DNA of 64,000 nucleotides. Source: an uncultured Chloroflexia bacterium. GTDB taxonomy: Bacteria > Chloroflexota > Chloroflexia > QHBQ01 > JADMIH01. Location: positions 615,425 through 679,424 of the forward strand of contig CAWCNY010000005.1 of the NCBI GenBank assembly GCA_963797095.1. The letters run 5' to 3'. Position numbers and translations under genes: made by a program. Shown one piece after another: positions 14,515 to 57,950 of the stretch. Numbering within the stretch: the stretch's first letter is position 1; each line of letters opens with the position of its first letter. The notes under the pieces are model-generated. The model did no database searches and was not told the DNA's origin. It worked only from the letters and a program-made list of their open reading frames with translations.

Positions 14515-15564
14515 ATGACAACAGCTACCCTCACGACGACGTGGCCGAATGCGCGTATCCTGGTGGTTGATGACCAGCCGGTGAACACTCTCCTCCTTGA
14601 GAATATCTTGAACAGGTATGGGTTCAGGAATGTGCATTCGATCACGGATGCGCGGGACGTGGTGCCTTTGGTGCGTGATCTGAAGCCTGACCTGATATTG
14701 CTCGATCTGTGGATGCCGTACCTGGATGGGTTTGAGGTGCTGGAGAATCTGAGCGATGTGATCGACGGGAGCGAGTTCTTGCCTGTGCTGGTGCTGACGG
14801 CGGATGTGAACCCGGATAGTAAGAGGCGCGCCCTATCGAGCGGTGCGAAGGACTTTTTGAACAAGCCGTTCGACAGCCAGGAAGTGATCCTGCGGGTTAC
14901 GAATTTGCTTGAGACGAGGTGGTTGTATTTGCAGTTGCAGGACCGGAACCGCAATCTGGACGAGCAGGTGCGGAAGCGCACTTATGAGCTGGAAGCGGCG
15001 CAGGTTGAGATGCTGGAGAGGCTGGCGTGGGCGGCTGAGTACCGGGACGACGATACGGGCCGCCATATCCAGCGGGTGGGGAATAATGCGACGATTGTGG
15101 CGGAGGCGCTTGGGCTGGGGGAGCAGTTGACCACGCTTATACAACGGGCTGCGCCTCTGCATGATGTGGGGAAGATCGGGGTGCCGGACAGTATTCTTCT
15201 TAAGCCGGGCAGGCTGACGGCTGAGGAGTTTGATGTGATCAAGAGGCATACGAATATCGGTGCTCGGATCCTGGCGGAGGGGCATTCGGCCCTGGTACGG
15301 ACGGCTGCGAGTATTGCTTTTTCGCACCACGAGCGATGGGACGGGTCGGGGTATCCGGCGCGCGTGACGGCGGAGAGGATTCCGATTGAGGGGCGTATTG
15401 TGGCGGTGGTGGATGCTTTTGATGCTCTTACTCATAAACGTCCTTATAAGGAGCCGTGGCCTATTGAGGATGCCCTTGCGGAGATACGCAGGAATACGGG
15501 GACGCAATTCGATCCTATGATTGCTGAGGCGTTTTTGGATTGTCAGAGGTGTCTTGAGTTGTGA
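14515..15564 (+). CDS. Response regulator with REC plus an HD-GYP phosphodiesterase domain (RpfG-like; c-di-GMP hydrolysis)
   Basis: The REC domain is present (ILVVDDQ...LLDLWMP). The HD domain is present ([11 protein letters not shown]). The [11 protein letters not shown] motif is the HD-GYP signature. Confidence 0.9.
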
Positions 15565-15625
15565 CGAGTGACGAGTAGCGAGTAGCGAGTGGCGAGTGGC
15601 GAGTGACGAGTGGTGAGGTAGGACT
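15563..15625. repeat. Heptanucleotide tandem repeat array (GAGTGAC/GAGTAGC/GAGTGGC, ~8 units)
   Basis: The run is cgagtgacgagtgacgagtagcgagtagcgagtggcgagtggcgagtgacgagtgg. It begins directly at the stop codon of the HD-GYP gene. Confidence 0.9.
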
Positions 15626-18700: not shown

Positions 18701-18852
18701 TTATCCACAATTTGATGCTAATATCGCTATCAGTAATTATACCATATTTTGGGGGGATTTGCACGTGAATGTAGCACGTGCGTTCTGTTGGCGGTGCCTG
18801 AGGAAGAGCTTGTAGGGGGTGCTTCTTGGTTGGATGGGCATGGTGGAGGCAA

Positions 18853-19035
18853 AGACCCCTCACCCCCGACCCTTCTCCCCGTTCGAACGGGGAGAGGGGA
18901 GAGTAAAAAGAGGAAGTAGAGTTGGGGGACACCCCCCAAACCCCCTGTCAGGGGAGTACCCCTGCACCCCTTTTGGTATGTGGCGGGAATATGATACCTT
19001 ACCCTGGCAGGGAAGTGCCTCTGCACCCACTCTGT
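18853..19035. repeat. Mosaic intergenic repeat element, copy R1 (module A hairpin + module B + a degenerate B)
   Basis: Begins AGACCCCTCACCCCCGACCCTTCTCCCC...GGGGAGAGGGG. This is followed by GAGTTGGGGGACACCCCCCAAACCCCCTGTCAGGGGAGTACCCCTGCACCCC. It lies upstream of gyrB. Confidence 0.85.
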
Positions 19036-19122
19036 GGGTGGAGATAGTAAATCCGCCTTCGGGACGGCCTTGTTGGGGCCGGGGAAGGCGGATTTTGTTG
19101 GGGCTGGTAGTGGGTCAGGGGT

Positions 19123-19899
19123 TTATTGGATTGTGAAGACTAGCACCTGCTCGAGGCCGGTGGAGAGGCCGTGGGCTACGAGGGAGTAGGTGCCATTGGG
19201 TAGGCCGGTGGTGTCGAGGGTGTAGGAGAAGGCACCGGAGTCGTCGGCGGAGGCCATAGCGTTGAGACCGACGACACCGTCTACTGTATCGGAGTTATCC
19301 TGTCCGAGGGAGTTACGGGGGACTGTGACGCCTGAGGGGACGTTAACCCAGAAGCTGATCCATTCGTCAGCTTCGTAGGAAGCGCCTGAGATGGTGATGG
19401 GTGTGCCAGCGGGAACGGCGCTGCTGGAAGCAGAGAGCTGAGTGGCCGGACCGTCCATAATTGTGAAGGTGAGCACCTGATCTTTACCGCTGGTGAGGCC
19501 GTGGGCTACGAGGGAGTAGGTGCCATTGGGTAGGCCGGTGGTGTCGAGGGTGTAGGAGAAGTTGCCATCATCATCGGCTGTGCCCATATCGTTGAGGCCG
19601 ATGACGCCGTCCACTATCTCGGTATTGGATTGGCCGAGGGAGTCGGGGGAGATTATAGTGCCTGAGGGCACGTTGACCCAGACGCCGACCCACTCATCGG
19701 CATCGAAGGAAGAGCCTGAGATGGTGAGAGGGGTGCCAGCGGCAACGGTGGAACCGCTAGCTGATGTTAGCGCTAATGGGGAGAGGAGGGAAGCAGTCAG
19801 GGTTTGCGCAGAGGCTCTTGTACTGCCGAGGAGGGTGGCAGCGAGGGCCAGAGTGAGACCAGGGGCCGCCATCCATTTGAAGTTGATCCTGGTAAACAT
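19123..19899 (-). CDS. Secreted protein made of two tandem ~110-aa repeat domains (hypothetical)
   Basis: An N-terminal signal peptide is present (MFTRINFKWMAAPGLTLALAATLLGSTRASA). Two near-identical domains correspond to a ~330-bp tandem DNA duplication. The upstream in-frame ATG at 19929 is an alternative start. Confidence 0.7.
   Translation of the reverse strand: MFTRINFKWMAAPGLTLALAATLLGSTRASAQTLTASLLSPLALTSASGSTVAAGTPLTISGSSFDADEWVGVWVNVPSGTIISPDSLGQSNTEIVDGVIGLNDMGTADDDGNFSYTLDTTGLPNGTYSLVAHGLTSGKDQVLTFTIMDGPATQLSASSSAVPAGTPITISGASYEADEWISFWVNVPSGVTVPRNSLGQDNSDTVDGVVGLNAMASADDSGAFSYTLDTTGLPNGTYSLVAHGLSTGLEQVLVFTIQ
19165..19825. repeat. Intragenic ~330-bp direct tandem duplication (two copies) within the secreted-protein gene
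   Basis: A 65-bp stretch (gaggccgtgggctacgagggagtaggtgccattgggtaggccggtggtgtcgagggtgtaggagaag) occurs identically at 19165 and 19495. The flanking sequence is also highly similar. Confidence 0.9.
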
Positions 19900-20047
19900 T
19901 TGTGTCTCCTGAAAGTGAAGGTTGACCATAAGGGTCCAGTCGGGTCGTTTCTTGTGTCAACTCCACTTTAATACGCGCACATTAATGACGGGCAGGAGAA
20001 GAATTAAGAGTTGATGAAAGGTTAGCCACCGCATGGCTTGATGGAGT

Positions 20048-28299: not shown

Positions 28300-28357
28300 G
28301 GTGTTTCTCCGTGGATGGGGCCGACCCCTCGAATGTTGTTTCACATTGGGTGAGCAA

Positions 28358-28565
28358 AGACCCCTCACCCCCGGCCCCTCTCCCCTTGTAGGGGCGAGGG
28401 GAGTTAATAATTGGTGAGGAGAGTTGTGGGGACACCCCCCAATCCCCCTGTCAGGGGAGGACCCCTGCACCCCCTTTCGTTGACGTGTAAAGGAGGGGTT
28501 GGGGGCACCCCTAATCTCCTGTCAGGGGACGCCGGGGTCTTTCAGGGTAATACCTCTGCACCCCC
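28358..28565. repeat. Mosaic intergenic repeat element, copy R2 (A + B + B)
   Basis: It has the same A and B modules as R1. It lies between the DUF4097 gene stop and the MFS-3 start. Confidence 0.85.
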
Positions 28566-28569
28566 TCGG

Positions 28570-29709
28570 TTAGCGACCGAGGCGGGTGATGGCGTCGAGG
28601 GCTTCCTGGGCTGACATTTCGCCGCGCTCTACCTTCTGGAAGATCTCTAGCTCGGCTTGCTGGCGAGAGACGTAACCTTCGGGCTGGGTGCGGTCGCCGT
28701 AGCTTTCGTCTGAGCGGCTGAGGTCGGTGGTGAGGGAACCGGAGGTGCCATCGCCATCGGCCCTAGGCTGCCTGCGCGGGTTGATGTTGATGTCACCGCT
28801 GACGGTTGATACCTGGATGGTGAGGCCGCCGCCGCCGTTGACTTCGAGGGAGGTCTCGCGCCTGCCATTGGCCTGGTACTTGACCTTGTCGCGGGGGAAG
28901 CCGCAGGTTACGGAGCCGCTGACGGTGCGGGTCTCAAGCTTGAAGCCGGCATCGGCAGGGGTGAAGACGGTGAGGTCGCCACTGACGGTGCGTACCTCGA
29001 AGTCCTTTTCAGGGAGCTTGACCATGTCGAGTTGCAGATCGCCGCTGGAGGTGTGCATGCTCAACTCATCGAGTGAGAGGTCGCGGGTGCGGATGTCGCC
29101 GGAGGCGGTGCGCACGCCCATCTTGCCTTCGAGGCCGGCAACGGTTATGTCGCCGCTGGCGCTGCTGACCAGGAGGTTGCCGCCCACGTTCTTGAGGCCG
29201 AGGTCGCCGGAGCTTGTCTGGCAAAGGAGGGTGCCTGTGACACCTTCGATCTTGATATCGCCGCTGCTTGTGCGAAGGTTGAGGTGGCAATTGTGCGGTA
29301 CTTTGATGTAGTAGTCGCGGCCACCACGCCAGTTGCCGAGGTTGATATCGACGTGGACGCCAAACCTGCTCATCCTGCGCATAGTGCGGTCGATGGCGCG
29401 CTCGATGTTCTTGCGCTCAAGGCTGGTGGCGGCCTTCGCCAGGTCTACGCCGAGGTCTTTCAGTTCCACGTCGCCGGGGTCACGGAAGTTGACTACTTTC
29501 TGACGGCCGGGGTTGTTCTTGATGGTGACGTTGGACCCTTCCTCGATTACATCGAAGTAACCATCGGGGTCGCTGATCGATACTTCGATCTCCTGCTTGT
29601 CCCATGCTTCAACGTAAACGTCGCCGGTGGGCTGTTCGAGGTTGACGCGGGGGGTTTCGTCGAATTCCGCTGTGGAAATCGTCTGTGTGTATCCTTGAGT
29701 TTCTGCCAT
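28570..29709 (-). CDS. DUF4097-family protein (LiaG / putative-adhesin-like beta-helix repeats)
   Basis: Repeated SGD(I/L)xV motifs are present (TSSGDIKIEG, SSGDLGLKNV, ASGDITVAG, ASGDIRTRD, SSGDLQLDMV, VSGDLTVF, VSGDINI). Confidence 0.8.
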   Translation of the reverse strand: MAETQGYTQTISTAEFDETPRVNLEQPTGDVYVEAWDKQEIEVSISDPDGYFDVIEEGSNVTIKNNPGRQKVVNFRDPGDVELKDLGVDLAKAATSLERKNIERAIDRTMRRMSRFGVHVDINLGNWRGGRDYYIKVPHNCHLNLRTSSGDIKIEGVTGTLLCQTSSGDLGLKNVGGNLLVSSASGDITVAGLEGKMGVRTASGDIRTRDLSLDELSMHTSSGDLQLDMVKLPEKDFEVRTVSGDLTVFTPADAGFKLETRTVSGSVTCGFPRDKVKYQANGRRETSLEVNGGGGLTIQVSTVSGDININPRRQPRADGDGTSGSLTTDLSRSDESYGDRTQPEGYVSRQQAELEIFQKVERGEMSAQEALDAITRLGR

Positions 29710-31944: not shown

Positions 31945-32075
31945 GGGAACCCCTCACGCCAGCCCCTCTCCCCCGGTGGGGGAGAGGGGGTTAATAATTA
32001 GTGAGGGGAGTTGGGAGGACACCCCCAATCCTCCTCTCAGGGGAGTACTCCCTGCACCCCTTTGCAGGGGGTTTG
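31945..32075. repeat. Mosaic intergenic repeat element, copy R3 (A + B)
   Basis: The sequence is CCCCTCACGCCAGCCCCTCTCCCCCGGTGGGGGAGAGGGGG...GGACACCCCCAATCCTCCTCTCAGGGGAGTACTCCCTGCACCCC. It lies in the divergent intergenic region. Confidence 0.85.
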
Positions 32076-33240: not shown

Positions 33241-33560
33241 GAGCCCTCACTCCCAGCCCCTCTCCCCTGCTAGGGGAGAGGGGAGTTAGTAATTAGTGAG
33301 GAGAGTTGGGGGACACCCCCGCCGCCCAGAGGGCACCCGCCCGGCAGGCAGTTCCGCCTGCACCCCCTTTAGCAATCGCGCCTGAGAGCTGGGATACGCC
33401 CAAACCGCTCGGCAGACTTTTCTGCCTGCACCCATGTTGGTGGAGTGTAAAGGAAAGGTTGGGGACATTCCAGAAACCCCCTGTCAGGAGGCGAAGTTCC
33501 CTGCATCTCTTTTTTGCCAATTGGGACCGCGAGTTGGGGGAAGTGTCCCAGATTCCCTTT
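33241..33560. repeat. Mosaic intergenic repeat element, copy R4 (A + ~3-4 B-like modules)
   Basis: Starts GAGCCCTCACTCCCAGCCCCTCTCCCCTGCTAGGGGAGAGGGGAGTTAGTAATTAGTGAGGAGAGTTGGGGGACACCCCC... Several variant B modules follow. It lies upstream of hutI. Confidence 0.85.
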
Positions 33561-36767: not shown

Positions 36768-36800
36768 CTAGTTCCTGGTTCCTGGTTCCTGGTTGTTGGT
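36768..36800. repeat. Heptanucleotide tandem repeat (GTTCCTG, ~4 units)
   Basis: The run is tagttcctggttcctggttcctggttgttgg, between the asparaginase II start and the O-methyltransferase stop. Confidence 0.85.
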
Positions 36801-37502
36801 AGTCGGAGGTCGGTAGTTGGAGGGATGGGTTGGTTGTTGGGGATTGGGTAGTTTTAGGGTTATTGAGAGGCCGTCGCGCAGGGGGATTATTGTGGTTGTC
36901 AGGCGGGGGTGGTTGGAGACTGCTTTGTTGAAGGCGGCTATGCCCTGGGTGGAGGGGGAGGGGTTCTGGGGGTCCAGGACGCCGCCTGAGCGGATGGCGT
37001 TGTCGGATAGGAGGAGGCCACCAGGGCGGAGACGGCGGAGGCAGCGGTCGAGCATATGGAGGGCGGTGTCGGGTTTGTCGAACTGGGTGAGGATGTCGAG
37101 GAAGATTAGGTCAAAGCTCTCTTCCATGCCGTTCATGAGGACCAGGGCGTCGCCACGGCGGACGGCGCAGGTGCTGGAGAGATCGGCCTGGCGGAAGTAG
37201 GCTTCGGCCCAGGAGGCGCGGGCGTCGTCTTTTTCCAGGGTGACTACGCGGCCTTCGTTTTGGCGGGCGGCGAGGGCTAACCAGAAGGCGGAATAGCCGA
37301 TGGCGGTGCCGACATCGAGGATGTCTTTGGCGCGAGTGGAGAGGGCGAGGGTGTAGAGGAAGTGGCCCTCAATAGGGCCTATGATGGGGACGTTTTCACG
37401 CTCGGCGTGGGCTTCCATGTCGGCCAGGACGCCCTGGCGGGCAGGGATCAATGATAGTAGGTATTCTTCTACTCTGGGGTCTGTTATTCCGAAGTGTTTC
37501 AT
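36768..37502 (-). CDS. Class I SAM-dependent O-methyltransferase (caffeoyl-CoA OMT-like)
   Basis: The SAM-binding motif is present (ILDVGTAIGYSAFWLA) along with downstream family motifs. Confidence 0.85.
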   Translation of the reverse strand: MKHFGITDPRVEEYLLSLIPARQGVLADMEAHAERENVPIIGPIEGHFLYTLALSTRAKDILDVGTAIGYSAFWLALAARQNEGRVVTLEKDDARASWAEAYFRQADLSSTCAVRRGDALVLMNGMEESFDLIFLDILTQFDKPDTALHMLDRCLRRLRPGGLLLSDNAIRSGGVLDPQNPSPSTQGIAAFNKAVSNHPRLTTTIIPLRDGLSITLKLPNPQQPTHPSNYRPPTTNNQEPGTRN

Positions 37503-37544
37503 TTTTTGTGTTCTCTTTTTGTTTCTTACAGGTTGGGGTAGGAG

Positions 37545-37890
37545 AGACCCCTCACCCCCGGCACCTCTCCCCTATCAGGGGAGAGGGGAGTTAATAAAGA
37601 GAAGAAGTAGAGTTGAGGGGACGCCCCCCAAACCCCCTGTCAGGGGAGTACCCCTGCACCCCCTTCTGCTGTGTGTTAGGGAAGAGGCGACACCCCCAAT
37701 CCCCCTGTCAGGGGAGAACCTCTTCGCTCCCACTTTTGCCGGATAAGCGAGGAAAGAATTGGGGGAACACCTCCCGAACAGCCTGACAGGCTGTTTCGCC
37801 TGCACCCCCTTTGTGGTTGGGTGGTAGAGGAAGGGTTGGGGATACCCTAAGCCCCGCAGGCGACTTCATCGCCGCACCCCTTTTGTGCCT
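37545..37890. repeat. Mosaic intergenic repeat element, copy R5 (A + 4 B-like modules)
   Basis: Starts AGACCCCTCACCCCCGGCACCTCTCCCCTATCAGGGGAGAGGGGAGTTAATAAAGAGAAGAAGTAGAGTTGAGGGGACGCCCCCCAAACCCCCTGTCAGGGGAGTACCCCTGCACCCCC... It lies upstream of the O-methyltransferase gene. Confidence 0.85.
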
Positions 37891-37950
37891 GGATAGTGTA
37901 GGGAGATGAAGGCACGCATAACCCTCGGTAAGCGGTTTCGGTTGCGCTCT

Positions 37951-38415
37951 TTATTCTTCATGCTCGTGGCCGAAGACGGCTTTGTAGTCTTGTTGGATTT
38001 CCCAGGCTTCGTTGAAGCGGGGTGTGGGTTTGCCTTCTTGTTGGGTCCATTGATGAAGGCAGCGGGTGCACCGGTAGGTGAAGATGCGGACTGCATGGGT
38101 TTCCCTGGAAACGCGATGGGCAGTCCAGGCAGCGATGATCGTCAGGGATAGTATACCAGCCGTGATAAGTATTAACCATGTTGAATCTGGACCGAAAAGC
38201 CAGGTAACCCCCAGGTAAGACACGAGTACAGATGCGACGAAGATCGTGCCTGTGACCTGTGCATCTAGAGCGCCCATCTGACGATAGGTTTTGCCGGTGC
38301 GGAGGTCACGCCAAAGCATCCCCACGTAGTTTCCGAATGCGCCGCAATTGGGGCATTGGGTGGGCGATAGCTGGCTAGGGTGGGCAGAGGCAGGGGGTTG
38401 AGGCCAGAGTTTCAT
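37951..38415 (-). CDS. Small membrane protein with a Cys4 zinc-ribbon-like N-terminus (hypothetical)
   Basis: Two CxxC pairs flank two transmembrane helices (CPNCG...CTRC). An ATGA overlap with the upstream DUF1786 gene suggests translational coupling. Confidence 0.5.
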   Translation of the reverse strand: MKLWPQPPASAHPSQLSPTQCPNCGAFGNYVGMLWRDLRTGKTYRQMGALDAQVTGTIFVASVLVSYLGVTWLFGPDSTWLILITAGILSLTIIAAWTAHRVSRETHAVRIFTYRCTRCLHQWTQQEGKPTPRFNEAWEIQQDYKAVFGHEHEE

Positions 38416-40704: not shown

Positions 40705-40969
40705 GGGGGATTGTCCTGTGTATGGGGTTAGTATCTTATGGTGGGAGGCGCTTGTCAAGCGCGAGGCTGTCTTTGGGTTGAAGCAAAGATGGCTTCTGAT
40801 ACTTTAGGACTGGTACGCCCACCACGACCCCACCCTAAGTCCCTCCCCAGAGTGGGGAGGGACTTTCAAAATAAAGCAAAAATCGGTCGATCTTTTCTTT
40901 ATTATGATCCAGATTGGGGTTCGCCAGGTGTAGGAGCGGAATGCAGGGCATTGCCGACATCCCCAGTGG

Positions 40970-42360: not shown

Positions 42361-43575
42361 TCACGTTTCATTTATCATTTCTTGGGCCTTCTGCCTTGCC
42401 CAGTCGTCGGCCCACTTGATGTCTTGTATGTCGGGATGGGGAATGGCGGTTCCAACATGATTTTCGAGCACTTTCTCTATTATACCAGGAATTTGCCCGA
42501 AGCGGATTTCTTCGCGTAGGAAGGAGGCGACGGCTATTTCGTCGGCGGCAGCCATTACGGTGGGGTAGGTGCCACCTTTGCGCCCGGCCTCGAAGGCGAG
42601 GTCGAGGCAAGGGAAGCGGGGGCGGTCGACCGCTTCGAAGTGGAGCGCGCCGAGCGCGGGCCAATCGGCGCGGGGGTGGGCGGGATTGGGGTAGCGCTGG
42701 GGGTGGGTGAGGGCATACTGGATGGGGACGCGCATATCAGGGATGCCTAGCTGGGCTTTGGCTGAGCCGTCTACGAAGCGCACCATCGAGTGGATAATGC
42801 TTTCGGGGTGGACTATCACCTCTATGTCGTCGAAGGGGACGCCGAAGAGCCAGTGGGCTTCGATCACTTCCAGGCCCTTGTTCATGAGGGTGGCGGAGTC
42901 GATGGTGACTTTAGCGCCCATGTTCCAGGTGGGGTGATTGAGGGCCTGGCGGGGTGTGGCGTTGTAGGTGCTCTGGAGATCCCACTTGCGGAAGGGGCCG
43001 CCCGATGCGGTGAGGACGACTTTCTCGATGCAGTCCCAGGCACCGGAGACGCCACGAGTGTCTTCGCGGCGGGGGGCTTCGGGCTCGCCAACGAGGCACT
43101 GCCAGATGGCGCTGTGCTCGCTGTCGATCGGGCGGATGCGGATGCCTTTCTCGCGGGCGAGGGAGGTGACGATGGTGCCAGCCATCACGAGGGCTTCTTT
43201 GTTGGCGAGGGCGATCTGCTTGCCAGCGCCGAGGGCGGCGAGAGTGGGGGCGAAGCCCGCGTGGCCGGTGGTGGCGACCACCACCATGTCTACTTCGGGG
43301 TGGGTAGCGAGTTCGACCATGCCGGATTCGCCTGAGAGGATGCGAGAGTCGTTGCGGGCGGCTTGTTCTTCGGCGAGGGCGAGGAGGAGGGGAGGTTGTG
43401 GGAGGGAGGCGGCTTGCTTCAGGAGGGCGCCGCGGTCGCGGCCCGCGCCGAGGGCGACCACCTGGAAATGGTCCGGGAGGCGGCTGACTACGTCGAGGGT
43501 CTGGGTGCCGATGGAGCCGGTTGAGCCGAGGATGGCAATACGGATTTTGGATTTTGGATTTTGGATTTTGGACAT
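42361..43575 (-). CDS. dxr: 1-deoxy-D-xylulose 5-phosphate reductoisomerase
   Basis: The N-terminus reads RIAILGSTGSIGTQTLDV and Dxr core motifs are present. Codons 2-10 are encoded by a GGATTTT heptamer tandem repeat, translated as SKIQNPKSK. Confidence 0.9.
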   Translation of the reverse strand: MSKIQNPKSKIRIAILGSTGSIGTQTLDVVSRLPDHFQVVALGAGRDRGALLKQAASLPQPPLLLALAEEQAARNDSRILSGESGMVELATHPEVDMVVVATTGHAGFAPTLAALGAGKQIALANKEALVMAGTIVTSLAREKGIRIRPIDSEHSAIWQCLVGEPEAPRREDTRGVSGAWDCIEKVVLTASGGPFRKWDLQSTYNATPRQALNHPTWNMGAKVTIDSATLMNKGLEVIEAHWLFGVPFDDIEVIVHPESIIHSMVRFVDGSAKAQLGIPDMRVPIQYALTHPQRYPNPAHPRADWPALGALHFEAVDRPRFPCLDLAFEAGRKGGTYPTVMAAADEIAVASFLREEIRFGQIPGIIEKVLENHVGTAIPHPDIQDIKWADDWARQKAQEMINET

Positions 43576-44532: not shown

Positions 44533-45360
44533 CTACTTCACGGTAGCGGGATCGAAGGAGACAGAGGCGGCCTGGGCAGAGATGGCGTCGTTCCCGTTGT
44601 ACTCATGTATCTCTTCGGGAAGGATGCCGCCAAACTTGCGGTTGCGCCTGCCGTACTCGGCTATGGCCTCTCGGAAGGAGTCTTTGTCGAAATCGGGCCA
44701 GCAGGTGGGGGTTGAGTAGAACTCGGAATAGGAGGCCTGCCAGACGAGGAAATTGCTGAGACGCATCTCGCCGGCTGTGCGGATGATGAGGTCGGGGTCG
44801 GGGATCTCGCGGGTGTAGAGGTGGCTGGAAATGGCCTCTTCGGTGATGTCTTCAGGCTTGACGCCCTCGGCCACGAGATCGCGGACGGCGCGCACGATGT
44901 CATCGCGACCGCCATAGTTGAAGCAGACGCTGAGGATCAGGCGGTTGTTGTGCCTGGTGGTTTCGAGCGCGTAGGCTATGGCCTTCTGCAAGGAGGGGGG
45001 CACGTTTTCCATGTGGCCCAGGTGGCGGATCTGGACGCCCTCGCGGGACAATTCGGGAGTCTCTTTGTGGATCACCTCGGCCAGGATGCGCATGAGGCCC
45101 TGCACCTCACCGCTCGGCCTGTTCCAGTTTTCGGTGGAGAAGGCGTAGACGGTCAGGTATTTGACATCGTTCTCGACGCAGGCATGGACTATGCGGCGAA
45201 TGTTCTCGGTGCCTGCGCGGTGCCCGGCCAGGCGTGGGAGACCGCGCCTGCGCGCCCATCTGCCGTTGCCGTCCATAATGATGGCGACGTGCTGCGGCCG
45301 AGGATCCAGATGATTTTGGATTTTGGATTTTGGATTTTGGATTTTGGAGATATCGGACAT
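44533..45360 (-). CDS. uppS: Undecaprenyl-diphosphate synthase (isoprenyl transferase)
   Basis: The HVAIIMDGNGRWA and ENWNRP motifs are present. The N-terminal codons are encoded by a GGATTTT heptamer repeat, translated as SKIQNPKSKIQN. Confidence 0.9.
   Translation of the reverse strand: MSDISKIQNPKSKIQNHLDPRPQHVAIIMDGNGRWARRRGLPRLAGHRAGTENIRRIVHACVENDVKYLTVYAFSTENWNRPSGEVQGLMRILAEVIHKETPELSREGVQIRHLGHMENVPPSLQKAIAYALETTRHNNRLILSVCFNYGGRDDIVRAVRDLVAEGVKPEDITEEAISSHLYTREIPDPDLIIRTAGEMRLSNFLVWQASYSEFYSTPTCWPDFDKDSFREAIAEYGRRNRKFGGILPEEIHEYNGNDAISAQAASVSFDPATVK
45305..45352. repeat. Heptanucleotide tandem repeat (GGATTTT, ~5 units) at the uppS 5' end
   Basis: The run is gattttggattttggattttggattttggattttggag. 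Confidence 0.9.
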
Positions 45361-46110: not shown

Positions 46111-47624
<1,514 letters not shown>

Positions 47625-47735: not shown

Positions 47736-48737
47736 CTATGCTTCTTCGTCGTCGGGCGAGAAGCTGTACTCACCCGGCTCGACTGTGTAATCGAAATCTT
47801 GCTCGGCGCGCATGGTCTCGCGGCGCTGTTGGCCTTCGATGGCGGCGTCCGCAATCTTGGCGGTGATTACACGGACGGCCCTGATGGCGTCGTCGTTGGA
47901 GGGGATCACATAATCCACCTCGTCGGGATCGCAGTTGGTGTCGACCATAGCGACGACTATTATGCCAAGCTTGATGGCCTCTGTGATGGCAATGCGCTCG
48001 CGATGAGGGTCGACTATGAAGACGGCGCTCGGCAGGTCGCGCATGTTTTTGATGCCGCCCAGCAGGTTGTTGAGGCGCACGATCTGCTCTTCGAGCTTGC
48101 TGGCCTCGGCCTTCGGTAGGTCGTTGAACTCGCCACGCTCGCGGCGGAACTCGAGGTCCTGTAGGTAGCGAAGGCGCTCGCGGATGGTGCGGAAGTTGGT
48201 GAGCATACCGCCCATCCAGCGTTTGTTGACAAAGAGTTGCCCTGCGCGCTCGGATTCTTCCTGGATGGCTTCCTGGGCCTGCTTCTTGGTGCCGATGAAG
48301 AGAATTCTGTCGCCGCGCGCCACAAGGTCGCTCACGAAGTTCATGGCTGCCTGCAAGCCGGTGACGGTCTGCTGTAGGTCGATGATGTGGATGCCGTTGC
48401 GCTCGGTGAAGATGTAGGGCTTCATCTTGGGGTTCCAGCGCTTGGTCTGGTGCCCGAAGTGTACGCCCGCTTCGAGGAGGGCCTTCATGCTGATGCCGGT
48501 GGAAGCTGAGCCGGCGCTCACGTTGCCGTCGGCTGAGCCGTTCGCCGAGCGCTGTGGCCTGGCGGGTGCTTCGACCGGTGCTGTTTCGACCGGTGCTGTT
48601 TCGACCGGTGCTGTTTCGACCGGTGCTGTTTCGACCGGTGCGGCTTCCGCCACTGGAGCCTGGGCGACAGGAGCCTCGACGGCGGTGGGCTGTTCTGTAT
48701 CTACCTGCTGTTCGATGTCACTATCCATAGTTACCAA
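47736..48737 (-). CDS. rpsB: 30S ribosomal protein S2 with an ~83-aa acidic Pro/Ala-rich N-terminal extension
   Basis: The S2 core starts at [20 protein letters not shown]. The extended start TTG 48737 has a strong upstream GGAGG at 5-nt spacing. The extension contains 4x APVET from a 15-bp tandem repeat. The alternative short start is ATG 48489. Confidence 0.85.
48575..48640. repeat. 15-bp tandem repeat (cggtgctgtttcgac, ~4 units), encoding (APVET)x4 in the RpsB N-terminal extension
   Basis: The run is ccggtgctgtttcgaccggtgctgtttcgaccggtgctgtttcgaccggtgctgtttcgacc. Confidence 0.9.
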
Positions 48738-51132: not shown

Positions 51133-53340
51133 TTAGCGGGCGCTTTGGCCTGAGGTGGTGCCTCTGTAGATTGTGTAGCGGGGTTGTTGTTCGGCTATTT
51201 TGTAGAGGGATTGGAGGGTTTGGGTGGTGGCGGGGGAGAGGCGGGCGAAGCCACGCTCGTGGACTACTATGAGGGAGACAAGGGTGGAGCGTTCGAGGAA
51301 GTCGGCCTGGGGGATGGGGCTTCGCATTACGGCATAGGGGTCGTCGCCGTGGTCGCCGCGCAGAGAGGAGTCGATGAGGTCGCCCCAATCGCGGGTGTCG
51401 AGGCTGAGGCCGAGGTAGATCATGTGGCCGTAGCTGTCGATCAGGTAGCCGGTGGAGGGGGAATAGCTGGGTGGACGGGCTGAGAGTATGTTGAACTGCT
51501 CGTCGGAGGAGAGGACGGACGAGCCGGGAGGGACGGCGTCGTTGACGTAGCGGGCAACAATCTCGAAGATGTGGTCTTCGCAGTGGGGGCAGTCGCGGGT
51601 GGTCATGCCGGTCCATTGGAGAACGATGAGGGGTGAACCTACCAGGAGGAGAACCACGAGAGGGGTGAAGGTTGTTAGTAGGGAGGTGCGTCGGGCAGAA
51701 GCGGGAGGCCGAGGGTGAGCAGAGGTGCGGGACGTGAGGCGGCGGAGGAGTCCGGGGGTGAGGCTCAGGCCGGCAGCGAGGATGCAGAAGGGGGCGGCTA
51801 GCTGGATGTAGTAGTGCTGGTAGAAGGAGCGGCTGTAGGTGAAGAGGATGAGGCTGAAGAAGGCCCAGAAGATGGCGACGCGCCAGGGGCCGAGGGAGCC
51901 GCGCAGGTTGGCCCACACCCAACAAGAGAGGACTATGAAGCCGAGAGCGGCCAGGAGCGGGGTGAGGGCGTTGGCGAGGCTGGAGGTTAGGTCGCCTATG
52001 CGGGCGGGGGTATCGACCTCGCCGTCGCTGGGGCGGAGCATCTGGAAGAAGAAGACCATGCGGATGAACTGGGAGGGGGCGATGATGAGGAAGGGGCCGA
52101 CGACGACCAGGAAGGAGGCTAGAGCGCCAAGGATGAGGGAGATGAACGAATTCTGGATTTTGGATTCTGGATCTTGGATCTTGGATTTGTTGGTGCCGAG
52201 TTCTGAGTTTGAAGTGGGGAGTGGGGGATCTGGGTCGTCTTGGGTAGGGGTTAGGGTGGAGGGTTGGATGGGGGTGGTGCGGCGGGTTTCTAGCCAGAGC
52301 CAGATCATGTCGGCTAGGATGGCGAGGAGGCAGGCCAGGCCAGCTATTTTGGTGAGGGCACTCAGGGCGGCCAGGACGCCGACGAGGAAGAATCCGAGGC
52401 GCGGGGTGCGGAGTTTGGAGTGCGGAGTGCGGAGTGCGGAGTGCGGAGTGTTTATTCTGTTGTTTGTTAGGGTGGGGCGGACCAAGATGTAGAGGAGAAC
52501 GGCGGCGCATGATAAGAGGACCAGGGGGCCTTCCAGCATTATCTTGCGGTTGATCTCTACTACTCTGCCGTCGATGGCCCAGAGGCCGCCTGCCAAGGCG
52601 CCGCCCCAGAGGCCTGCAAGGAGATAGCCTATGCCGAATAGTAGGGCCAGGGTTATCAGGCTGTAGGCGACGGAGAGGTAGCGCGCGATCATGAAGGAGG
52701 TGGGACTTCCCCATTCGGTGAAGTGGTAGGCCATGGCGGGAGCGTAGGCAATGGCGGCGATGGGAGGGTGGGCGAAGAAGTAGTCGCGATAGGGGAGGAT
52801 GCCTTGCAGGAAAAGCTGGGAAGTGCCTGCATAGACGCCTTCATCGTCGTAGGGATAGCGGCTGATGCCGTAGTTCTGGGGCCATAGCTCGACCATGCGG
52901 CCAATGCCACCAATGAGGATCAGCACCAGGAGCAGGGCAAGCGGAATCCAGCGTGATAGGCGTGGGCGTGTGGCTGGTTGGAGTGGGTGTGGAGGTTGGT
53001 CGTCAGGGGTGGGGAGTTTGTTGGAGATGAAGCGGGTCGAGAGGAGGGCAGCGCCGAGGAGCCATGCGGCCCAGGCCAGCCAGGGGCGGGCGTCGTAGTG
53101 AGCTTCGAGGGGGGAGAGGATGCCGAGTTGGAGGGGGGCGTCCCAGGCGACGCTGCCACCGAGCCAGCCGGAGATGCCTTCAATAAGGAGGGACAGGAGG
53201 CGCAAGTTGATGGCGACGCCTAGAGCGCCATAGGCAATCAGGATCGCTGAGATGTAGGGGACGAAGCGGGCAAAGTAGCCTGTTAGGGGCAGGCTGTACT
53301 TCTGCGATTGCATGGAGGGATTGTCGCAGAAGCACAGCAA
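51133..53340 (-). CDS. Glycosyltransferase family 39 / ArnT-PMT-like membrane glycosyltransferase
   Basis: A multi-transmembrane N-terminus with a PMT_2-like region is present (YPYDDEGVYA...). Two in-frame heptamer-repeat-derived inserts are present (HSALRTPHSKLRTP and KIQDPESKIQN). Confidence 0.75.
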   Translation of the reverse strand: MLCFCDNPSMQSQKYSLPLTGYFARFVPYISAILIAYGALGVAINLRLLSLLIEGISGWLGGSVAWDAPLQLGILSPLEAHYDARPWLAWAAWLLGAALLSTRFISNKLPTPDDQPPHPLQPATRPRLSRWIPLALLLVLILIGGIGRMVELWPQNYGISRYPYDDEGVYAGTSQLFLQGILPYRDYFFAHPPIAAIAYAPAMAYHFTEWGSPTSFMIARYLSVAYSLITLALLFGIGYLLAGLWGGALAGGLWAIDGRVVEINRKIMLEGPLVLLSCAAVLLYILVRPTLTNNRINTPHSALRTPHSKLRTPRLGFFLVGVLAALSALTKIAGLACLLAILADMIWLWLETRRTTPIQPSTLTPTQDDPDPPLPTSNSELGTNKSKIQDPESKIQNSFISLILGALASFLVVVGPFLIIAPSQFIRMVFFFQMLRPSDGEVDTPARIGDLTSSLANALTPLLAALGFIVLSCWVWANLRGSLGPWRVAIFWAFFSLILFTYSRSFYQHYYIQLAAPFCILAAGLSLTPGLLRRLTSRTSAHPRPPASARRTSLLTTFTPLVVLLLVGSPLIVLQWTGMTTRDCPHCEDHIFEIVARYVNDAVPPGSSVLSSDEQFNILSARPPSYSPSTGYLIDSYGHMIYLGLSLDTRDWGDLIDSSLRGDHGDDPYAVMRSPIPQADFLERSTLVSLIVVHERGFARLSPATTQTLQSLYKIAEQQPRYTIYRGTTSGQSAR
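52140..52192. repeat. Heptanucleotide repeat (GGATTTT/GGATCTT variants, ~5 units) inside the GT39 ORF
   Basis: The run is ttctggattttggattctggatcttggatcttggatttg. Confidence 0.85.
52395..52450. repeat. Heptanucleotide repeat (GCGGAGT, ~5 units) inside the GT39 ORF
   Basis: The run is gcggagtttggagtgcggagtgcggagtgcggagtgcggagtg, encoding HSALRTPHSKLRTP on the minus strand. Confidence 0.85.
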
Positions 53341-57861: not shown

Positions 57862-57950
57862 AGGTGGCGAGTGGCGAGTGGCGAGTGGCGAGCGGCGAGC
57901 GGCGAGCGACGAGTGACGAGTGACCAGGAACTAGGGACTAGGGACTAGGA
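57862..57950. repeat. Compound heptamer array (GGCGAGT/GGCGAGC ~8 units, then ACTAGGG/AACTAGG ~3 units), between the T-box terminator and the pheS start
   Basis: The run is ggcgagtggcgagtggcgagtggcgagcggcgagcggcgagcgacgagtgacgagtgaccaggaactagggactagggactaggaact. Confidence 0.9.

What the first reader, a model, noticed from the sequence alone, without database searches (positions are those of the whole stretch)
37600..37860. Module B carries a three-arm switch-like structure, conserved by compensatory changes
In canonical module B, CCCCTG, CAGGGG and CCCCTG occur consecutively as ...CCCCCTG-t-CAGGGG-agta-CCCCTG-CACCCCC. The middle arm can pair with the downstream arm to give a hairpin with a 4-nt loop. 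It is also palindromic with the upstream arm.

Variant copies keep this architecture with different sequence. In R5 (37770-37810) the unit reads CAGCCTG-a-CAGGCTG-tttc-GCCTGCACCCCC. In R4 it reads GCAGGC-agttcc-GCCTGCACCCCC. A preceding mini-hairpin, GGGGG-aca-CCCCC, is also conserved.

Stem-preserving substitutions imply selection on structure, either an RNA hairpin or terminator, or a DNA cruciform or protein-binding palindrome, rather than on sequence alone.
Basis: partly seen in the sequence, partly recalled or inferred. Interest (0 to 1): 0.7.

Follow-up and report, generated by a model that had tools for sequence, protein, structure and literature searches.

The report
Phylum-wide two-hairpin intergenic repeat
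The supposed three-arm "switch" is one unit of a short two-hairpin repeat that sits in tandem arrays between genes across the phylum Chloroflexota. It seems to be undescribed and behaves like a REP/BOX-type repeat that comes and goes, not like a regulatory RNA switch.

Summary
Module B is a 57-75 nt unit found 12 times in the window. All 12 copies lie on the + strand, in five intergenic clusters, and each cluster is preceded by a module-A hairpin.

The same core occurs in at least 115 loci from 41 Chloroflexota assemblies covering many classes. The core reads: xyGGGGG-ACA-CCCCCy'x', then ACCCCCG, then GCAGGG..loop..CCCTGC, then ACCCC.

Covariation tests on 150-200 copies support two hairpins:
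- P1 is the mini-hairpin.
- P2 is formed by the middle and downstream arms.

The upstream "third arm" does not covary with the middle arm. The switch reading is therefore not supported.

The clusters are not tied to transcription. They occur in either orientation and in all intergenic types at background frequencies. Relatives with the same gene order lack them: the 448 nt spacer here is only 7-18 nt there. No Rfam family matches.

The best reading is a new, modular, REP/BOX-like structured repeat that is gained and lost. Its hairpins and invariant C-tracts are probably recognised by an unknown partner. A lineage-dependent orientation bias with GC skew hints at a single-stranded-DNA mechanism, but this is unproven.

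The parts
37609..37668 (+). Canonical module-B unit. P1 is 37613-37620 paired with 37624-37631, loop ACG. Linker ACCCCCTGT is 37632-37640. P2 is CAGGGG 37641-37646 paired with CCCCTG 37651-37656, loop AGTA. Tail CACCCCC is 37657-37663.
   Evidence: CM hit of 51.6 bits, E 2e-10. The predicted fold gives P1 plus P2.
37678..37738 (+). Degenerate module-B unit. The linker and the CCCCTGTCAGGGG palindrome are kept. The 3' arm and tail are replaced by CCTCTTCGCTCCC.
   Evidence: CM hit with E 0.025. Direct repeat family D1 at 63% identity, and inverted repeat I6.
37755..37814 (+). Variant unit R5. P1 is weakened (GGGGG-aaca-CCTCCC). P2 is CAGGC 37787-37791 paired with GCCTG 37798-37802. This is the only variant whose upstream tract, CAGCCTG 37779-37785, is also complementary to the middle arm.
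   Evidence: CM hit of 39.7 bits, E 1e-7. The minimum-energy fold uses the upstream and middle arms.
37830..37886 (+). Variant unit. P1 is GGGG-ata-CCC(T). P2 is GC-a-GGCGA 37856-37863 paired with TCGCC-GC 37869-37875. The tail is ACCCC.
   Evidence: CM hit with E 0.001. Fold.
37541..37597 (+). Module A. It reads GGAGAGACCCCTCACCCCCGGCACCTCTCCCC-tat-CAGGGGAGAGGGGAG followed by the AT box TTAATAA. It heads the cluster. The hairpin arms are 37564-37573 and 37577-37586.
   Evidence: Inverted repeat I9, 10 nt at 100%. The same A + AT-box + B composite occurs at all five window clusters and in MAG JBDTQH.
37503..37950 (.). The whole 448 nt spacer between the 154-aa gene (37951-38415, - strand) and the O-methyltransferase gene (36768-37502, - strand). 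It holds A plus four B units, antisense to both genes.
   Evidence: ORFs and Pfam families. The orthologous spacer is 7, 18 and 15 nt in L120, L121 and L124, and 117 nt without any B unit in L123.
33301..33515 (+). Three module-B units at 33301-33372 (R4, with a 12-nt insert), 33384-33440 and 33453-33515. They lie between two + strand genes, so here they are in sense orientation.
   Evidence: CM hits with E 1.5e-9, 0.004 and 3e-4. Sequence.
28420..28570 (+). Two module-B units at 28420-28479 and 28494-28570, between two - strand genes.
   Evidence: CM hits with E 1.8e-11 and 1.9e-6. Sequence.
18917..19035 (+). Two module-B units at 18917-18976 and 18986-19035, between two - strand genes.
   Evidence: CM hits with E 5e-13 and 0.001. 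Sequence.
32007..32066 (+). A single module-B unit between divergent genes.
   Evidence: CM hit with E 6e-8. Sequence.

Best explanation
Module B is one unit of a Chloroflexota-wide family of short, structured, non-coding interspersed repeats. In the window's lineage it is modular: one A module followed by one to four B units in head-to-tail arrays.

Shown here:
- Each unit has two hairpins. P1 is a 7-bp stem with an ACA triloop. P2 has a conserved GCAG/CTGC base and a free-varying top.
- The hairpins are separated and followed by invariant unpaired tracts, ACCCCCG and ACCCC.
- Both stems are kept by compensatory change.
- The clusters lie in ordinary intergenic DNA, irrespective of gene direction.
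- Clusters are present or absent at different junctions of the same conserved operon in related genomes.
- Unit number changes between paralogous regions.

Inferred:
- The family spreads and turns over as a non-autonomous element, in the manner of REP/BIME, BOX or IS200/IS605-derived elements.
- The hairpins plus the invariant single-stranded tracts are the features recognised by a trans-acting partner that is itself conserved in the phylum.
- In several lineages, including this window (12 of 12 units), the C-rich strand lies on the G-rich strand. If positive GC skew marks the leading strand here as in most bacteria, that strand is the lagging-strand template.
- Any transcript that crosses an array will carry strong hairpins, with possible side effects on mRNA decay or read-through. 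That is not why the units are there.
- The upstream 'third arm' is simply the conserved C-tract next to the G-run of P2. It is not a co-evolving switch arm.
For: Family and range:
114 are from Chloroflexota of many classes.
- The covariance model finds 251 units in those loci and 12 in the window.

Structure:
- P1 outer pairs counted outward from the loop pair in 79% and 65% of 203 unique copies, against 46% in shuffles, using TA, GC, CG and AT types.
- Cognate P2 arms give 6.55 Watson-Crick pairs, against 5.70 for non-cognate arms (maximum 5.82 over 30 shuffles).

Recognition features:
- Loop ACA, linker C5G and tail AC4 are 77-100% conserved even in the 54 copies that the scan pattern did not force.

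Not tied to transcription:
- The clusters sit in 59 co-directional, 17 divergent and 17 convergent spacers. Background predicts 59, 19 and 15.
- Within co-directional spacers, 38 are antisense and 21 are sense.
- The cluster has no consensus promoter, and its one terminator-like hit is no more than shuffles give.

Gain and loss:
- The 154aa-to-methyltransferase spacer is 448 nt with A+4B here. It is 7, 18 and 15 nt in relatives at 80-87% protein identity, and 117 nt without B in the syntenic, element-rich MAG JBDTQH.
- JBDTQH instead has A+B at the M50-racemase junction, where the window has only an A-like hairpin. It has no B unit at the C26-HutI junction, where the window has A+3B.
- Two paralogous regions of Dictyobacter aurantiacus differ by exactly one 84-nt unit bounded by an 18-nt direct repeat.
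- Flanks are more alike within an assembly (0.38 identity) than between assemblies (0.285).

Strand bias:
- The C-rich strand lies on the G-rich genome strand in 71 of 109 same-orientation runs (p = 0.002) and in 19 of 26 assemblies that show a majority.
- This holds in all four gene contexts.
- The coding-strand skew of genes is about zero.
Against: - No mobilising enzyme was found. No gene family recurs next to the units.
This is a weak negative.
- No target-site duplication or exact element ends could be defined, because the nearest empty sites are only 80-87% identical at protein level.
- The strand bias is heterogeneous: JBJMMB 13:2, window 5:0, DAOUBN 8:7, JACVQK 2:9. It rests on the skew of 8-kb pieces.
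- Conservation of a roughly 45-nt core across a whole phylum is unusual for selfish REP-type repeats. It would fit a host function equally well.
- Gene calls in the loci are crude ORF heuristics.
- The sample is biased towards copies with a canonical P1 and tail, because of the scan pattern.
Confidence: 0.55

Rival explanations
1. B units are RNA-level elements. They would be a multi-copy family of small C-rich RNAs, or arrays processed from a precursor started near module A's AT box. The two unpaired C-tracts would bind G-rich targets such as Shine-Dalgarno regions, or an RNA-binding protein.
For: - Two hairpins flank invariant unpaired C-tracts, the layout of C-rich regulatory sRNAs (the comparison is from my own knowledge).
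- A conserved AT-rich box (TTAATAA, TTTATAA, TTATATTAA) sits 17-24 nt before the first B unit, both in the window and in MAG JBDTQH.
- Non-Watson-Crick positions in P2 are G.T 17 times and A.C 6 times on the C-rich strand.
- An orientation co-directional with replication would suit highly transcribed genes.
- sRNA genes may lie in either orientation relative to their neighbours.
Against: - There is no promoter-like site, and a 63-72 nt unit leaves no room for one per unit.
- P1 shows no excess of G.T over A.C. Many of the P2 G.T cases can be redrawn as a bulge.
- The units are not conserved at orthologous positions.
- No Rfam family matches.
- In one lineage the units occur as close inverted pairs.
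- The AT box is absent from most other lineages.
Confidence: 0.17
2. B is a host DNA site read in a replication-oriented way. Examples would be a binding or loading site for a chromosome-organising, priming or repair protein acting on the lagging-strand template.
For: - The orientation bias follows GC skew independently of gene direction.
- The core, including its unpaired bases, is conserved across the phylum.
- The distribution over intergenic types equals background.
Against: - The bias is absent or reversed in some assemblies.
- Units pile up in local tandem arrays of up to 8 rather than being spaced out.
- They are dispensable at orthologous junctions.
- Density differs widely between genomes, from about one unit per 2 kb in the sampled loci of JACVQK to one cluster per 13 kb in the window. 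The JACVQK loci were chosen because they contain a unit, so that figure is inflated.
Confidence: 0.12
3. B would be a three-arm switch in which the middle arm alternates between the upstream and downstream arms, acting as a terminator, attenuator or riboswitch-like regulator of the flanking genes.
For: - The canonical window units and R5 can form either pairing.
- A C5 tract lies next to the G-run of P2 in most copies.
- There is a weak sub-threshold resemblance to the two-hairpin guanidine-II aptamer: 17.3 bits against a gathering score of 32.
Against: - The upstream-to-middle pairing shows no covariation.
- The upstream tract does not follow when P2 changes, except in R5.
- No U-tract follows either stem, and the terminator scan is at the shuffle level.
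- The units lie antisense to their operon in 3 of 5 window clusters and in 38 of 59 co-directional cases overall.
- They are not depleted from divergent spacers.
- They are absent from the same operon in relatives.
- Folding energies are not unusual: z-scores are -0.9 for the two canonical + strand units and -1.2 to -2.4 for the variant units.
Confidence: 0.04
4. The selected feature is a four-tract i-motif on the C-rich strand, or a G-quadruplex on the complement, rather than hairpins.
For: Four tracts of at least 4 C's, with median spacers of 3, 13.5 and 4 nt, occur in 98 of 150 copies. 135 of 150 copies have four tracts of at least 3 C's.
Against: - Covariation in the P1 outer pairs and the P2 inner pairs shows that Watson-Crick hairpins are what is kept.
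- Only 3 of the 12 window units have four C4 tracts, yet the variant units keep their hairpins.
- Two of the four tracts are explained as stem arms.
Confidence: 0.04

Closest known systems
REP/BIME elements with their RAYT (TnpA-REP) transposases (Proteobacteria and others; Di Nocera et al. 2013, PMC3733652; Quentin et al. 2018, PMC6006769)
   Same: Short, high-copy, intergenic imperfect palindromes whose stems are kept by compensatory change. They have conserved unpaired bases beside the stem, occur singly or in clusters, and are thought to be handled as folded single-stranded DNA.
   Different: - There is no GTAG or CGTC tag. The bases beside the stems are CCCCCG and ACCCC.
- The unit has two different hairpins.
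- Arrays are mostly head-to-tail rather than inverted pairs.
- There is no depletion from divergent spacers.
- The core is conserved across a whole phylum.
- No RAYT was found near the units.
BOX elements of Streptococcus pneumoniae (boxA-(boxB)n-boxC), from my own knowledge
   Same: A modular intergenic repeat with one head module followed by a variable number of tandem copies of a roughly 45-60 nt second module. It is predicted to fold stably and its propagation mechanism is unknown.
   Different: The sequence is unrelated. No C module was identified here. BOX is confined to one genus, whereas this core spans a phylum.
IS200/IS605-family ends and their miniature derivatives (PATEs). Single-strand transposition is coupled to replication (background in PMC6006769).
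   Same: Subterminal hairpins plus short conserved single-stranded guide or cleavage sequences on one 'top' strand. Element orientation is biased with respect to the replication fork.
   Different: The units are much shorter (57-75 nt). The two hairpins are unlike each other. No tnpA or tnpB lies nearby. The strand bias is only moderate and depends on lineage.
Rfam Chloroflexi-1 motif (RF01698; Weinberg et al. 2010, PMC2864571) and the guanidine-II riboswitch (RF01068)
   Same: Small hairpin-based motifs. Chloroflexi-1 is also from Chloroflexota. Guanidine-II has two GC-rich hairpins joined by a linker.
   Different: Chloroflexi-1 gave no hit even at E up to 10. Guanidine-II scored 17.3 bits against a gathering score of 32. 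Its defining ACGR loops are absent: the loops here are ACA, or ACG followed by C, and the P2 loop is variable.

Membership tests
REP (GTAG/CGTC-tagged, RAYT-associated) | A 20-40 bp imperfect palindrome in high copy number in intergenic DNA. | tested here: met
   P1 (17 nt) and P2 (16-25 nt) are hairpins. There are 12 units in 64 kb and 251 units in 118 loci.
REP (GTAG/CGTC-tagged, RAYT-associated) | A conserved GTAG or CGTC tetranucleotide at one foot of the stem. | tested here: not met
   The conserved flanks are ACCCCCG on the 5' side and ACCCC on the 3' side. The stem base itself is GCAG/CTGC.
REP (GTAG/CGTC-tagged, RAYT-associated) | A RAYT (Y1 HUH) gene in the same genome, typically flanked by REPs. 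| tested here: inconclusive
   No recurrent neighbouring gene was found. tblastn with recalled Y1 sequences found nothing in about 0.95 Mb. Whole genomes could not be searched.
REP (GTAG/CGTC-tagged, RAYT-associated) | A preference for spacers downstream of genes, that is, convergent or unidirectional spacers. | tested here: not met
   Observed 59, 17 and 17 in co-directional, divergent and convergent spacers. Background predicts 59, 19 and 15.
BOX-type modular repeat | An A-(B)n-C modular architecture with a variable number of B modules. | tested here: inconclusive
   A followed by 1-4 B units is seen at all five window clusters and in MAG JBDTQH. No C module was recognised. Most other lineages have B without A.
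IS200/IS605-derived miniature element | Left- and right-end subterminal hairpins recognised by TnpA, a fixed target tetranucleotide at the left flank, and the top strand on the lagging-strand template. | tested here: inconclusive
   Two hairpins lie on one strand. The skew bias is 71:38 but heterogeneous. No conserved flank tetranucleotide across lineages and no tnpA were found.
Intrinsic terminator / attenuator | A GC-rich stem followed directly by a U-tract, lying downstream of a gene on the same strand. | tested here: not met
   The terminator scan is at the shuffle level. ACCCC follows P2. The units are antisense to their genes in 38 of 59 co-directional cases.
Guanidine-II (mini-ykkC) riboswitch | Two hairpins each capped by an ACGR tetraloop, lying in a 5' UTR, and reaching the Rfam gathering score. 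| tested here: not met
   The score is 17.3 bits against 32. The P1 loop is ACA and the P2 loop is variable. The units are not in 5' UTRs.
Rfam Chloroflexi-1 (RF01698) | A match to the covariance model. | tested here: not met
   No hit at E up to 10 on the window region or at E up to 1 on four array-bearing loci.

The most novel reading that the evidence does not exclude
The B core (P1-ACA, C5G, P2, AC4) is the substrate of a still unidentified enzyme conserved across Chloroflexota that acts on folded single-stranded DNA at the replication fork. That would make it a new REP-transposase-like system with its own recognition code. Alternatively, the core defines a new phylum-wide class of C-rich structured RNA. 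Under either reading, a roughly 45-nt non-coding sequence has been kept nearly unchanged across an entire bacterial phylum while its copies move.
Probability: 0.25. Interest if true: 0.75.

Novelty: new variant of a known kind. Interest (0 to 1): 0.5.

Why it matters
Chloroflexota are abundant in soils, sediments, oceans and bioreactors, yet little is known about their non-coding DNA.

A repeat that appears to reach high copy number in some genomes is of practical and biological interest. It breaks short-read assemblies: several contigs end inside it. It places strong hairpins inside operons. Its 45-nt core is kept from Dehalococcoidia to Ktedonobacteria.

It gives a handle for finding the protein that recognises it. 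It provides a marker for contig binning and for strain typing. It also offers a test case for why some interspersed repeats stay constant over phylum-scale time while REP families elsewhere are species-specific.

Tried and rejected
- **Rfam.** I ran it at gathering threshold on the whole window and at permissive E-values on the region and on four array-bearing loci. No family matched. The only hits were chance-level miRNA/snoRNA models and a sub-threshold guanidine-II match.
- **RNAalifold on a plain MAFFT alignment.** It recovered only the invariant core of P1, because stem lengths vary. I replaced it with loop-anchored counts and a covariance-model alignment.
- **Neighbouring genes.** All-against-all clustering of 696 neighbouring ORFs gave only ABC ATPases, short-chain dehydrogenases and the like.
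- **Strain-level filled and empty sites.**
  - The window's methyltransferase is on record only on a 999-nt contig that ends in the repeat.
  - The 154-aa protein is not on record.
  - A degenerate metagenome scan for the methyltransferase start gave one contig, with heptamer arrays in place of B units.
- **Flank-pair search among the loci.** It found only the Dictyobacter paralogues.
- **Literature.** Searches by sequence string and by topic found no description of this element.
- **Viral contigs.** One IMG/VR contig carries two good units. This was not informative.
- **G.U versus A.C counts** as a test of RNA strand were inconclusive.

Full report
**What is at the coordinates**

Positions 37503-37950 form a 448-nt spacer between two genes on the - strand. 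One is a 154-aa protein (37951-38415). The other is an O-methyltransferase (36768-37502).

The spacer holds one module-A hairpin (37541-37597) followed by four head-to-tail units of 57-75 nt, starting at 37609, 37678, 37755 and 37830. The three consecutive arms CCCCCTG-t-CAGGGG-agta-CCCCTG-CACCCCC lie at 37633-37663. The R5 version lies at 37779-37809. R4 lies at 33344-33367.

The 13-mer palindrome is strongly over-represented: 18 matches against 2.6 expected. A covariance model built later finds exactly 12 units in the 64 kb. All are on the + strand, in five clusters at 18.9, 28.4, 32.0, 33.3 and 37.6 kb, and each cluster is headed by module A.

**The unit belongs to a family that spans a phylum**

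I scanned one genome per species for GGGGACRCCCCC-N18-48-CTGCACCCC.
- Three loci are chance matches in other phyla that the model does not score.
- One contig is labelled Micrarchaeota.
- The other 114 come from 41 Chloroflexota assemblies: Dehalococcoidia including SAR202 and Ca. Australimonas, Chloroflexia, Anaerolineae, Caldilineae, Ardenticatenaceae, Thermoflexus, and Ktedonobacteria including two Dictyobacter isolates.

The model finds 251 units in these loci, often in arrays of up to eight. The consensus reads: two or three variable bases, GGGGG-ACA-CCCCC, their complements, ACCCCCG, GCAGGG(..)-loop-(..)CCCTGC, ACCCC.

**Which pairings are real**

*P1.* I counted outward from the loop, so no alignment was involved. 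The sixth and seventh pairs of P1 were not fixed by the scan pattern. They pair in 79% and 65% of 203 unique copies, against 46% after shuffling and 33-51% after sliding, using TA, GC, CG and AT types.

*P2.* It has 68 distinct 5' arms, each with a matching 3' arm. Examples are CAGAGAACGA/TCGTTCTCTG, CAGGGAAC/GTTCCCTG, GCAGAGGGG/CCCCTCTGC, and the window's own CAGGC/GCCTG, GGCAGA/TCTGCC and GGCGA/TCGCC. Cognate arms give 6.55 Watson-Crick pairs. Arms exchanged between copies give 5.70, with a maximum of 5.82 over 30 shuffles.

*Model-based alignment of 150 copies.* Results for the P1 + P2 structure:

| Measure | Observed | Shuffled | Shuffles reaching observed |
|---|---|---|---|
| Cells paired | 92.0% | 85.4% | 0 of 500 |
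| Cells changed on both sides | 127 | 26.6 | 0 of 500 |
| Covariation score | 0.195 | 0.076 | 0 of 500 |

The slid controls give a covariation score of at most 0.06.

*Upstream arm against middle arm, same alignment.* This pairing scores 75.5% against 75.0% in shuffles (28 of 500 reach it). Its covariation score is 0.033 against 0.027, which is not above the slid versions. The central T-A pair that makes the window's palindrome perfect is present in only 20 of 150 copies.

When P2 changes sequence, the upstream tract either stays C-rich or decays. It does not follow P2, except in R5.

The third arm and the switch are not supported.

The unpaired parts are as conserved as the stems. Loop ACA, linker C5G and tail AC4 are 77-100% conserved in the 54 copies that the scan pattern did not force. 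This points to sequence-specific recognition, not just a stable fold. Folding energies are in fact unremarkable for this base composition: z-scores are -0.9 for the two canonical + strand units and -1.2 to -2.4 for the variant units.

**What it is not**

- No Rfam family matches at gathering or permissive thresholds. The only suggestive hit is guanidine-II at 17.3 bits against a gathering score of 32, and its defining ACGR loops are absent. Chloroflexi-1 (RF01698) gives nothing.
- The scan found no consensus promoter in the cluster. Its one terminator-like hit, inside unit 37755 on the - strand, is no more than shuffles give (1 found, 1.0 expected).
- Using crude ORF-based gene calls, clusters lie in 59 co-directional, 17 divergent and 17 convergent spacers. 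The background of spacers in the same loci predicts 59, 19 and 15.
- Within co-directional spacers, the units are antisense 38 times and sense 21 times.

A cis-regulatory leader, an attenuator or a terminator would not be distributed in this way.

**The clusters come and go**

The operon around the finding reads M50 peptidase, racemase, DUF1786, 154-aa protein, methyltransferase, asparaginase II. It is conserved in relatives.

The spacer between the 154-aa gene and the methyltransferase gene compares as follows:

| Genome | Methyltransferase identity | Spacer | B units |
|---|---|---|---|
| Window | - | 448 nt | A + 4B |
| L120 | 87% | 7 nt | none |
| L121 | 80% | 18 nt | none |
| L124 | 82% | 15 nt | none |
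| L123 (MAG JBDTQH) | 73% | 117 nt | none |

JBDTQH is otherwise rich in the same A+B composite. It carries A+B at the M50-racemase junction, where the window has only an A-like hairpin at 40841-40861. It has no B unit at the C26-HutI junction, where the window has A+3B.

Another relative has inverted heptamer arrays in the DUF1786-to-methyltransferase spacer, the equivalent position.

Two paralogous regions of Dictyobacter aurantiacus, 92-95% identical, differ by exactly one 84-nt unit bounded by an 18-nt direct repeat.

Flanks beyond the core are more alike within an assembly (0.38) than between assemblies (0.285). This is as expected if copies multiply within genomes.

**Orientation with respect to the chromosome**

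The window has a GC skew of about +0.2 on the + strand whatever the gene direction, and all 12 units have their C-rich strand on that strand.

In the loci, the coding-strand skew of genes averages zero. Even so, the C-rich strand of the element lies on the locally G-rich strand in 111 of 158 units. The same holds for 71 of 109 same-orientation runs (p = 0.002) and for 19 of 26 assemblies that show a majority. The ratio is similar in all four gene contexts.

The bias is not uniform across assemblies:

| Assembly | Concordant : discordant |
|---|---|
| JBJMMB | 13 : 2 |
| DAOTTC | 6 : 1 |
| Window | 5 : 0 |
| DAOUBN | 8 : 7 |
| JACVQK | 2 : 9 |

In DAOUBN, units often form inverted pairs.

If the G-rich strand is the leading strand, as in most bacteria, the written strand is the lagging-strand template. 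That is the arrangement reported for elements moved as single-stranded DNA (background in PMC6006769). I treat this as a lead, not a result.

**Search for a partner**

No gene family recurs beside the units. A single-copy enzyme elsewhere in each genome would escape both tests.

**Conclusion**

Module B is a unit of a new family of structured interspersed repeats, apparently undescribed. It is absent from Rfam 15, and I found no paper.

It works like REP/BIME, BOX or miniature IS200/IS605 derivatives, in four respects:
- non-coding;
- hairpin-dependent;
- modular;
- gained and lost in intergenic DNA.

It fails the defining tests of REP, having no GTAG or CGTC tag and no preference for gene ends. 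It differs from all of these elements in three ways:
- its bipartite core;
- its head-to-tail arrays;
- its conservation across a phylum.

The mechanism of spread and the recognising factor are inferred, not shown.

Noticed in passing
window 18848-18905, 28357-28407, 31948-31997, 33243-33292, 37541-37597; also 40841-40861: Module A is a second repeat: ..CCCTCACCCCC..CCCCTCTCCCC-loop-GGGGAGAGGGGAG followed by an AT box such as TTAATAA. It heads every B cluster in the same orientation. An A-like hairpin stands alone at 40841-40861. The same A + AT-box + B composite occurs in MAG JBDTQH (L029, L042, L111/L123).
   Followed up: partly
window 15561-15617, 57864-57922, 43542-43572, 45312-45348, 47024-47060, 52401-52450; L123 3870-3905 and 4660-4710; L127 330-405: Near-perfect heptamer tandem arrays lie in intergenic DNA (GTGGCGA x8 twice, GGATTTT, GATTTTG, GGTAGTC, GCGGAGT). 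Relatives carry other heptamers (GTAAAAC, GAAATGA) in the orthologous spacers. In L127 they form an inverted pair of arrays that could fold into a long hairpin.
   Followed up: no
window 48570-48641: A 15-nt unit, TTCGACCGGTGCTGT, is repeated 4.8 times at 100% identity.
   Followed up: no
whole window: GC skew is unusually strong and uniformly positive, about +0.2 on the + strand. It persists through stretches of + strand and - strand genes, so most genes between 15 and 55 kb lie on the C-rich strand.
   Followed up: partly
window about 19052-19100: A terminator-like hairpin, AAATCCGCCTTC...GAAGGCGGATTTTGTT, lies just after the 18.9-kb B cluster and next to the stop codon of the gene at 19123-19929.
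   Followed up: no
L064 6353-6422 (contig labelled Candidatus Micrarchaeota): A good B unit with a completely different P2 stem (CAGAGAACGA/TCGTTCTCTG) sits on a contig binned as an archaeon. This is probably a mis-binned Chloroflexota contig, or else a transfer between lineages.
   Followed up: no
L126 5670-5727 and 6791-6846 (IMG/VR UViG_3300047160_036250): A 16-kb contig classed as viral carries two high-scoring B units. It could be a prophage or a host fragment.
   Followed up: no
L119 (999-nt Logan contig), and many DAOUBN and JBJMMB contigs: Short-read contigs of the window's own organism and of several MAGs end inside B units. The repeat therefore breaks assemblies.
   Followed up: no
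L018 6649-6783; L101 1104-1388: L018 holds a c-di-AMP riboswitch (95.5 bits). L101 holds a T-box leader at 84.4 bits, just under its gathering score of 93. Both are unrelated to the repeat.
   Followed up: no
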